Shown here: positions 45,337 through 45,629 of the stretch, one piece after another | How the letters are laid out: each line of letters begins with the position of its first letter | Numbering within the stretch: position 1 is the first letter of the stretch | Assembly (NCBI GenBank): GCA_951406725.2 | Contig: OX597828.1 | Coordinates: 11,284,001-11,348,000 of the forward strand | DNA: 64,000 nucleotides | Source of the DNA: Octopus vulgaris | Taxonomy: Eukaryota | Direction of reading: 5' to 3' | Program-made: the position numbers and the translations under genes | Notes under the pieces: model-generated | Seen by the model: the letters and a program-made list of their open reading frames with translations, nothing else | Databases searched by the model: none | Told to the model about the DNA's origin: nothing

Positions 45337-45629
45337 TATTTCTTTATTTACCTATAAAAAGGCCTACATAGAGGGGACATTACAAGGACAGACAAGGGAC
45401 ATTTAGGGTACAAACACGCTTCTTATATACACTATGAAAAAACGGATGGATTTATATATATTTTGCGGATGGGAGTTAAAAATATGAATGATGGTTGGAT
45501 GAAATTTGGGCCCGGGTTAGTGAATTAACCCGCCGGTTCGTTATCCCTTTTGGTAATCTTTTTCCCTTCTTTTATGCTCCGACCGACCGTGCAAGCACAG
45601 CCTCATGCATTTTCATCTTTCTTACCACT
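45337..45629 (-). mobile_element. 5'-truncated LINE-like 3' end with the B1-type tail
   Basis: TSD cgccaaaa(a)gagaga at 45322-45336 and 45630-45643. Minus-strand end ttgtctgtccttgtaatgtcccctctatgtaggcc...aataaagaaata. Confidence 0.75.

What the first reader, a model, noticed from the sequence alone, without database searches (positions are those of the whole stretch)
45337..45629. A LINE-like 3' fragment supplies the tail shared by SINE-B1 and the ORF1-only elements
Seen: this TSD-flanked piece ends ttgtctgtccttgtaatgtcccctctatgtaggcc...aataaagaaata. SINE-B1 ends tttgtctgtccttgtttgtcccctctatgtttagccccttgtgggcaataaagaaata. The ORF1 elements end gtagtgtcccctctgtgtaaagcctttatggcaattgaaaagaaata. 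All have a GCC-loop-GGC/GGT stem near a fixed GAAATA end and no poly(A). Known: SINEs borrow the 3' tail of their partner LINE. Inference: this marks the autonomous partner; stringent tail recognition would be unusual for an L1/Tx1-type system.
Basis: partly seen in the sequence, partly recalled or inferred. Interest (0 to 1): 0.7.

Follow-up and report, generated by a model that had tools for sequence, protein, structure and literature searches.

The report
Shared retrotransposon tail in octopus repeats
Several otherwise unrelated jumping-gene families in what appears to be octopus DNA end in the same short hairpin-containing tail, and some insert at the same spot in another repeat, which suggests they borrow the copying enzyme of one related group of retrotransposons, but the enzyme-coding partner itself was not found.

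Summary
45337-45629 (minus strand) is a 293-bp insertion with a 14-15-bp TSD in the (TC)n tail of another SINE. Its last ~60 nt match SINE-B1 (48/61) and both ORF1-only elements (0/2000 shuffles each). It ends in GAAATA with no poly(A), and a 3-4-bp hairpin precedes the end.

It has no detectable coding homology, its upstream UTR matches no other element, and no RT was found.

That fragment, both ORF1-only copies and one B1 pair insert at one site in SINE-A heads (3 of 5 AAGAA-type heads occupied, 0 of 9 others). ORF1 is an RRM-RRM-CCHC protein with Octopus homologs, under purifying selection (dN/dS 0.13).

Best reading: a group of target-preferring, probably Tx1-clade retrotransposons shares a recognised 3' tail. 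The focal piece is the closest match to B1's swapped-in tail but probably not the mobiliser of the ORF1-only elements. Precedents exist (SINEU/Tx1-Mar, HAL1, three L1-tail SINEs); I found no Tx1 tail-sharing pair in print. Clade membership is untested.

The parts
45337..45629 (-). Focal 293-bp insertion, probably a 5'-truncated 3' end of a non-LTR element; single copy in the window; no Pol III B-box found
45337..45404 (-). Shared tail: about 58 nt matching SINE-B1, about 68 nt matching the ORF1-only elements; ends GAAATA, no poly(A)
45350..45363 (-). Small hairpin of the focal tail (4-bp stem, 6-nt U-rich loop), ending 13 nt before the 3' end
   Evidence: not more stable than shuffles
45572..45628 (-). 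18 open codons and a stop at the 5' edge; could be the end of an ORF, no homology shown
45322..45336 (.). TSD copy at the element's 3' side
45630..45643 (.). TSD copy at the element's 5' side, running into (GA)n on the plus strand
44837..45653 (+). Host: tRNA-head SINE ('SINE-C', A- and B-box matches) whose (GA)n tail is interrupted in antisense by the focal insertion
52780..54255 (+). ORF1-only element 1 (frameshifted ORF1 52886-54066, ~190-nt 3' UTR, shared tail); 15-bp TSD 52765-52779 / 54256-54270 in a SINE-A head
54271..55717 (+). ORF1-only element 2 (frameshifted ORF1 54350-55530), in tandem with element 1 across one TSD copy, 72.5% identical to it; TSD 55718-55731
47925..48213 (+). Fourth tail-bearing fragment (~290 bp, different body) at the same SINE-A site; 11-bp TSD, the upstream copy of which is split by a MITE (47492-47915)
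51126..51540 (-). Two SINE-B1 units inserted at the same SINE-A site (within 1 nt)
40465..41307 (-). Array of three SINE-B1 units followed by a B2 unit
17946..18716 (-). Array of three SINE-B1 units followed by a B3 unit; joins at B position ~45
59588..59820 (-). Solo full-length SINE-B1 with an 11-bp TSD
804..939 (-). Solo 5'-truncated SINE-B1 with a 12-bp TSD in (TA)n
52737..56240 (+). SINE-A host copy interrupted by both ORF1-only elements, right after the A-box-like segment of its tRNA head

Best explanation
The focal piece is a 5'-truncated copy of a non-LTR retrotransposon family, most likely of the Tx1/L1 group, in an Octopus genome. It was inserted by target-primed reverse transcription at a (TC)n repeat (insertion and TSD shown; clade inferred). 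Its last ~60 nt are a cis signal conserved across several related families with different 3' UTRs and different targets: a pyrimidine tract, a short hairpin with a 5-6-nt U-rich loop, and a fixed GAAAUA end (conservation shown; RT binding inferred). ORF2p would bind this tail and start cDNA synthesis at the fixed end without copying a poly(A) (inferred). SINE-B got the B1 tail by a module swap from the focal family or a close sister (swap point shown; direction inferred). The ORF1-only elements are HAL1-like derivatives that keep a selected ORF1 and the tail (shown). A sister family probably moves them, one whose endonuclease prefers the SINE-A head, the site also used by the fourth fragment (shared site shown; enzyme inferred). 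So the tail marks a group of partners, not one partner.
For: Tail similarity: 0/2000 shuffles for focal vs B1 and vs both ORF1-only tails. B1-only models pick out exactly four non-B1 tails above background. Fixed end in 17/18 tails. TSDs of 11-15 bp in all 6 insertions aligned. Four tail-bearing insertions at one site, in three SINE-A copies; 3/5 AAGAA-type heads occupied vs 0/9 others, Fisher p 0.027. Tandem copies sandwich a TSD, as described for SINEU-3 (PMC4494074). The Tx1 family Kibi targets (TC)n, and Tx1 and Tx1-Mar target other transposons. ORF1 folds as two RRM-like domains plus a CCHC knuckle, a type PMC5203782 calls consistent with Tx1 in non-mammalian animals. Homologs are Octopus proteins. 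O. vulgaris has 80 L1-Tx1 families covering 56 Mb, vs 0.5 Mb for clade I. dN/dS between the two ORF1 copies is 0.13 (bootstrap 0.05-0.21, 227 codons). Three of four hairpin pairs change on both sides across types (1/500 shuffles). Focal is 48/61 identical to the B1 majority while B1 copies average 94%, so it is not a plain B1 copy.
Against: No RT or endonuclease was found in the window (13 candidate stretches) or fused to an ORF1 homolog, so the clade rests on ORF1 type and target behaviour. RRM+CCHC ORF1s also occur in other clades (recalled). The focal piece shows no coding homology and is a single copy. The hairpin is weak. The covariation count uses an alignment fitted to the structure and only about four independent lineages. 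The structured model gave no clearer separation than the sequence-only one. Focal vs fourth fragment is not significant (252/2000). Site preference comes from 14 heads in one window and may partly reflect subfamily age. No functional test of stringency exists.
Confidence: 0.48

Rival explanations
1. One reading: the focal family is the single autonomous LINE that gave its tail to, and mobilises, both SINE-B1 and the ORF1-only elements.
For: Focal is the best match to the B1 tail. It shares ~68 nt and a TTTAT-type loop with the ORF1-only tails. One B1 pair uses the same site as the ORF1-only elements.
Against: The UTR upstream of the tail is unrelated between focal and ORF1-only (205 and 277 of 1000). 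The target differs: (TC)n vs the SINE-A head. A fourth fragment with another body shares the ORF1-only site and hairpin.
Confidence: 0.12
2. The focal piece is itself non-autonomous, either the 3' end of another ORF1-only family or a ~290-nt short family. It then shows tail sharing among passengers and marks no RT.
For: No coding homology. Focal and the fourth fragment are both ~290 bp. ORF1-only families exist here, and no ORF1-RT fusion was found.
Against: No B-box. No similarity to the C-terminal domain of full-length ORF1 homologs. The two ~290-bp pieces share no body, and each is single copy, as 5'-truncated LINE ends usually are (established knowledge).
Confidence: 0.18
3. The partner group belongs to another clade (I/Nimb, R1, L2/CR1 or an unclassified LINE), where stringent hairpin tails are the rule; the finding is then an ordinary SINE/LINE pair.
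For: Most known SINE/LINE tail pairs are non-L1 (55 of 58, PMC3472496). ORF1 is modular and does not fix the clade. O. vulgaris has 23 Mb of unclassified LINEs.
Against: No terminal simple repeat, which L2/CR1/RTE/I tails commonly have (passages; recalled). Precise target sharing, tandem insertion and 11-15-bp TSDs fit described Tx1 behaviour. Clade I covers only 0.5 Mb in O. vulgaris. The Atlas look-alikes include ZCCHC3-like two-RBD+CCHC clusters (a lead only).
Confidence: 0.17
4. The focal piece is a one-off chimera: the RT started on a SINE-B1 RNA and switched to an unrelated RNA, so the tail came from the SINE.
For: The match to B1 stops at the B1 tail boundary; single copy. B1 arrays suggest template jumps may occur here.
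Against: Focal is 79% identical to the B1 majority against 90-98% for 12 B1 copies. It shares characters with the ORF1-only tails that B1 lacks, including sequence upstream of the B1 boundary.
Confidence: 0.05

Closest known systems
SINEU / Tx1-Mar of crocodilians (PMC4494074; passages and section 16 read)
   Same: SINEs and Tx1 elements share a preferred site inside another transposon; tandem copies sandwich a TSD; two hot spots without sequence similarity.
   Different: SINEUs end in poly(A), and no LINE matched the SINEU-1 3' half. Here the link is a shared hairpin tail without poly(A), the target is a SINE head, and the RT is not identified.
Kibi and Koshi, Tx1 clade (as described in PMC4494074)
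   Same: Kibi inserts into (TC)n; the focal copy sits in (TC)n on its sense strand.
   Different: One insertion only; no sequence comparison with Kibi was possible.
ZmSINE2/ZmSINE3 with LINE1-1_ZM; SINEX-3_CR with L1-1_CR (PMC3472496, main text read)
   Same: L1-clade LINEs with a conserved ~45-80-nt 3' end and a hairpin with conserved loop and variable stem, shared with tRNA SINEs.
   Different: Plant and algal L1 lineages, with homopolymer ends and no reported site specificity; not Tx1, not animals.
HAL1 (half-L1) elements (PMC5753468, passages)
   Same: Non-autonomous, encode only ORF1, and here ORF1 was under purifying selection.
   Different: Mammalian L1-derived. Here the ORF1 is RRM-RRM-CCHC, stops at the start of the C-terminal domain of full-length homologs, ends in a fixed tail and inserts at a preferred site.
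Stringent SINE/LINE pairs such as UnaSINE/UnaL2 and bivalve V- and CORE-SINE/CR1 or L2 (PMC3747384 table; PMC4824008 passages)
   Same: Shared 3' stem-loop; SINE bodies change tails to follow active LINEs.
   Different: Partners are L2/CR1 with repeat-ended tails.

Membership tests
Non-LTR retrotransposon insertion (TPRT) | Target-site duplication around the insert | tested here: met
   14-15 bp for focal; 11-15 bp for five other tail-bearing insertions
Non-LTR retrotransposon insertion (TPRT) | Fixed 3' end with variable 5' truncation | tested here: inconclusive
   Fixed end in 17/18 tails and a 5'-truncated B1; only one focal copy, so its truncation is inferred
Autonomous LINE (partner) | ORF2 with endonuclease and RT linked to this 3' UTR | not testable with these tools
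   No eukaryotic genome collection; no RT in the window, no ORF1-RT fusion, no coding homology in 293 bp
Tx1 clade | RT groups with Tx1 in a phylogeny | not testable with these tools
   No RT sequence recovered
Tx1 clade | APE-type endonuclease | not testable with these tools
   No ORF2 recovered
Tx1 clade | Type I ORF1 (RRM plus CCHC knuckle) | tested here: met
   For the ORF1-only elements, not the focal piece: zf-CCHC above cut-off; homolog model pLDDT 88 with two RRM-like domains. Not exclusive to Tx1.
Tx1 clade | Target preference for a multicopy sequence (over 20% of flanks in PMC4494074) | tested here: inconclusive
   3 of the 4 non-SINE tail-bearing insertions share one SINE-A site, the fourth is in (TC)n; numbers too small for the family-level criterion
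Stringent SINE/LINE tail pair | Significant shared 3' sequence between SINE and LINE-type element | tested here: met
Stringent SINE/LINE tail pair | Conserved stem-loop with compensatory changes | tested here: inconclusive
   3 of 4 inner pairs change on both sides, but fitted alignment, few lineages, z-scores not significant
Stringent SINE/LINE tail pair | Tail needed for retrotransposition | not testable with these tools
   needs an assay
HAL1-like ORF1-only non-autonomous element (52780-55717) | ORF1 only, no ORF2, element bounded by TSD | tested here: met
   Two ~1.45-kb copies with the same ORF1 end and UTR
HAL1-like ORF1-only non-autonomous element (52780-55717) | ORF1 kept under selection | tested here: met
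   dN/dS 0.13 (0.05-0.21), 227 codons; part of this may predate loss of ORF2
tRNA-derived SINE (focal piece itself) | Internal A- and B-box | tested here: inconclusive
   No B-box match at 2 mismatches, but the same scan also missed one in SINE-B1, so the scan is not decisive

The most novel reading that the evidence does not exclude
Octopus carries a Tx1-clade radiation that recognises its RNA by a poly(A)-independent, repeat-free hairpin tail while its members diversify their DNA targets ((TC)n, the A-box region of an abundant SINE, perhaps SINE-B heads). An abundant SINE has swapped tails (B1, and possibly B2 and B3) to follow these families, and selected ORF1-only derivatives ride the same tail. 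This would be a first tail-sharing SINE/Tx1 pair in the literature I could search. It would also be a LINE that uses another SINE's promoter region as its landing site.
Probability: 0.35. Interest if true: 0.68.

Novelty: new variant of a known kind. Interest (0 to 1): 0.47.

Why it matters
Whether stringent 3'-end recognition is ancestral in the L1 group is an open question raised in PMC3472496, where only three L1-tail SINEs were known, all in plants or algae. An animal Tx1 lineage with a shared hairpin tail and no poly(A) would bear on it directly and would give a short RNA signal to test. It would name the mobiliser of an abundant octopus SINE; 1279 of 1317 O. vulgaris SINE families are unclassified. 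A site-preferring enzyme with its own RNA tag is also of interest for targeted insertion. If the RT belongs to a clade with ordinary stringent tails, this is a routine SINE/LINE pair.

Tried and rejected
Search for an RT.
- Pfam scan of 13 window stretches: no RT or endonuclease family. These were picked from 300 high-complexity ORFs; the rest were not scanned.
- Longer-protein searches with ORF1: one search gave 0 of 5590 candidates; one search gave 2 of 8000 scored, both ORF1 only. Both are weak negatives.
- HMMER over 1.84 billion representatives gave 706 hits, 150 listed. Seventeen of the longer ones were scanned with Pfam, and none has RT or EN.

GTDB genomes gave no tail match and no ORF1 relative, as expected for prokaryotes. 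Rfam and ARAGORN found nothing.

An alternative frame at the end of the ORF1-only elements looked like an ORF2 C-terminus from memory. Pfam found nothing, and the ORF1 frame there aligns with an O. bimaculoides ORF1, so I dropped it.

A hairpin in the focal 5' half was not significant (z -0.93). B2/B3 tails are not significantly similar to the GAAATA tail in primary sequence (9 of 10 comparisons null; ORF1a vs B2 9/1000), so their hairpin likeness is a lead only.

A first dN/dS (0.32) used one block in the wrong frame and was replaced. PDB sequence search matched only the zinc knuckle at meaningful E-values. The fold search lists no L1 ORF1p among the rows shown, which excludes nothing.

Names and accessions of ten long ORF1 hits could not be looked up. 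The O. bimaculoides genome paper was not held. Repbase, Dfam and SINEBase were not available, so these families may already be deposited there.

Full report
Setting. The window is microsatellite-rich, 25-43% GC DNA crowded with short repeats. The only named homologs of its ORF1 are from Octopus bimaculoides (55% identity) and O. sinensis, so I take the source to be an octopus (inference). Three tRNA-head SINE groups matter. SINE-A has a CORE-like segment and SINE-B a Nin/Deu/Meta-like segment; both labels are recalled and untested. SINE-C is the host of the focal piece.

Observation. 45337-45629 lies on the minus strand between 45322-45336 and 45630-45643, a 14-15-bp duplication with a 1-nt difference, inside the (GA)n tail of SINE-C. 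All three quoted ends are present. Over the last 60 nt, focal vs two B1 copies and vs both ORF1-only copies beats 2000 of 2000 shuffles and all 2528 background 60-mers. Models trained on B1 tails alone recover 14 B1 tails and then exactly four others above background: focal, both ORF1-only copies and a fragment ending at 48213. 17 of the 18 end in GAAATA; none has poly(A) or a terminal repeat array. The hairpin can form in all four types: GCCC/GGGY in B1, (T)GCC/GGC(A) in ORF1-only, GGCC/GGCC in the fourth, GCCT/AGGT in focal, with 5-6-nt loops. It is small and not more stable than shuffles. Three of its four pairs change on both sides across types (1 of 500 shuffles). That alignment was fitted to the structure and holds about four lineages, and the structured model separated hits no better than the sequence-only one.

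What the focal piece is. It is single copy. It has 18 open codons at its 5' edge and then about 235 nt without a long frame. It matches none of 151 session proteins and not the ORF1 C-terminal profile. Upstream of the tail it resembles neither the ORF1-only UTRs (205 and 277 of 1000), the fourth fragment (198) nor B1. Its tail is 48/61 identical to the B1 majority, against 41-42 of 60-61 for the other three non-B1 tails and 90-98% for 12 B1 copies. SINE-B has one head and body with three tails. Among 26 body matches, 13 lead into a B1 tail, 7 into B2 and 3 into B3, and 3 are SINE-A cross-matches. B1 leaves the shared body where the match to the focal tail begins. So the B1 tail is a swapped module, and the focal family is its nearest relative in the window. 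That it is a truncated LINE end is an inference from the TSD, the fixed end and the lack of a promoter.

(1) A fourth tail-bearing fragment with a different body (~47925-48213). (2) A shared target. Both ORF1-only elements (in tandem across one 15-bp TSD copy), the fourth fragment and one B1 pair sit at TGTGGT/AAGAAG in SINE-A heads, same orientation, within 1 nt. A naive uniform model gives about 4e-11 for three further hits (post hoc). Of 14 scorable heads (13 plus the interrupted one at 51126), 3 of 5 AAGAA-type and 0 of 9 others are occupied (Fisher p 0.027); two degenerate heads were not scored. The bottom strand at the preferred site reads TTCTT/AC, like the L1 endonuclease consensus (recalled), but subfamily age could also explain the bias. 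The focal copy uses (TC)n instead. Eight of 14 B1 tails abut position ~45 of another SINE-B head; this is a second target, amplified dimers or template jumps, and is unresolved.

The ORF1-only elements. The two copies are 72.5% identical, both are frameshifted, and they share the ORF end and UTR. dN/dS is 0.13 (0.05-0.21) over 227 in-frame codons. The protein has a CCHC knuckle and belongs to a large family (706 hits). A homolog model (pLDDT 88) shows two RRM-like domains (best Z 9.2, rmsd 2.4 over 80 residues). The ORF stops where a C-terminal domain begins in full-length homologs. No RT was found in the window or fused to a homolog.

Mechanism. Shown: common tail, fixed end, TSDs, shared site, tail swap point, selected ORF1. 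Inferred: an ORF2p binds the pyrimidine tract-hairpin-GAAAUA signal and primes at a nick set by its endonuclease. Related families keep the tail while their UTRs and targets diverge. SINE-B1 and the ORF1-only elements are moved in trans. B1 appears at several targets, so more than one family may move it. The focal family is the likely tail donor for B1; the fourth fragment's family is the better candidate for the ORF1-only elements (same site; tail 0/2000 and 3/2000; weak upstream match to copy 2 only, 7/1000).

Comparison. It works like a stringent SINE/LINE system. Membership in Tx1 is untested because no RT is in hand. In favour are the Type I ORF1 (PMC5203782 passages), the (TC)n and transposon targets known for Tx1 families (PMC4494074), and the abundance of L1-Tx1 in O. 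vulgaris (PMC13282606 part 1 and supplement). Tx1-mobilised SINEs are known (SINEU), but by shared target, with poly(A) and no tail match for SINEU-1. L1-tail SINEs are known in maize and Chlamydomonas (3 of 58 pairs; PMC3472496 main text). The pair table of PMC3747384 lists no Tx1 and no octopus entry. ORF1-only derivatives are known as HAL1 (PMC5753468 passages). Ten searches and passages of PMC4824008, PMC4758252, PMC8967140, PMC5804259, PMC11203168 and PMC9115989 showed no description of this tail or of a SINE/Tx1 tail pair. Their supplements were not read, and neither was the supplementary pair table of PMC3472496. Repbase and Dfam were out of reach, so prior deposition is quite possible.

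Verdict. This is a new variant of a known kind if the RT proves to be Tx1, and ordinary if not. Interest 0.47; boldest reading probability 0.35, interest 0.68.

Noticed in passing
window 25244-25293, 40250-40297, 40476-40525, 46514-46563, 51911-51962, 56337-56386, 56568-56617 (B2); 4522-4573, 17946-17998, 30992-31043 (B3): SINE-B2 and B3 tails often carry a hairpin with the same CTTGT-type loop as B1 but swapped stem pairs (GGC/GCC). Six of the 10 show 3-4 pairs; one B3 copy was mis-registered there. Primary-sequence similarity to the GAAATA tail is mostly not significant. They may be older versions of the same signal.
   Followed up: partly
window 25109/25110, 30888/30889, 51308, 41078, 20695, 18487, 18303, 18119: Eight of 14 B1 tails are followed by position ~45 of a SINE-B head. 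In most the junction is a short palindrome (GAAATA-GG-TATTTC), so the RNA 3' end could pair with the head there; second target site, template jump or amplified dimer.
   Followed up: partly
window 47492-47915, 19651-20070, 21441-21854: A ~423-bp MITE with 29-bp terminal inverted repeats, three copies at ~89% identity; the one at 47492 has an 8-bp TSD (hAT-like by recall) and sits inside the fourth fragment's TSD.
   Followed up: partly
P0006 (hit): A 484-aa predicted protein joins the N-terminal ~200 aa of this ORF1 family to a C2H2 zinc-finger array; gene-model artefact or exapted ORF1. The window ORF1 copies also end at a GTGAGT splice-donor-like motif.
   Followed up: no
window 55811-55951 and 59705-59849: Two B1 heads share 95% identity including the upstream flank. 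The first lies inside the SINE-A copy that hosts the ORF1-only pair; possible local duplication or conversion.
   Followed up: no
window 57811-58281: Nearly perfect inverted repeat (57811-57976 vs 58214-58049, 95%) around a (TA)n centre; MITE-like or fold-back element.
   Followed up: no
window 60865-62100 and 49124-49694: Degraded frames that resemble a Penelope-like element and a mariner (the latter with 37-bp inverted ends), by recall only; Pfam found nothing in the pieces scanned.
   Followed up: partly
window 47950-48070: The fourth fragment contains an imperfect internal duplication of about 30 bp.
   Followed up: no
window 37280-37410 and 37654-37787; 692-753 and 1609-1670: Short local direct duplications (92% and 84%) outside the SINE families.
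   Followed up: no
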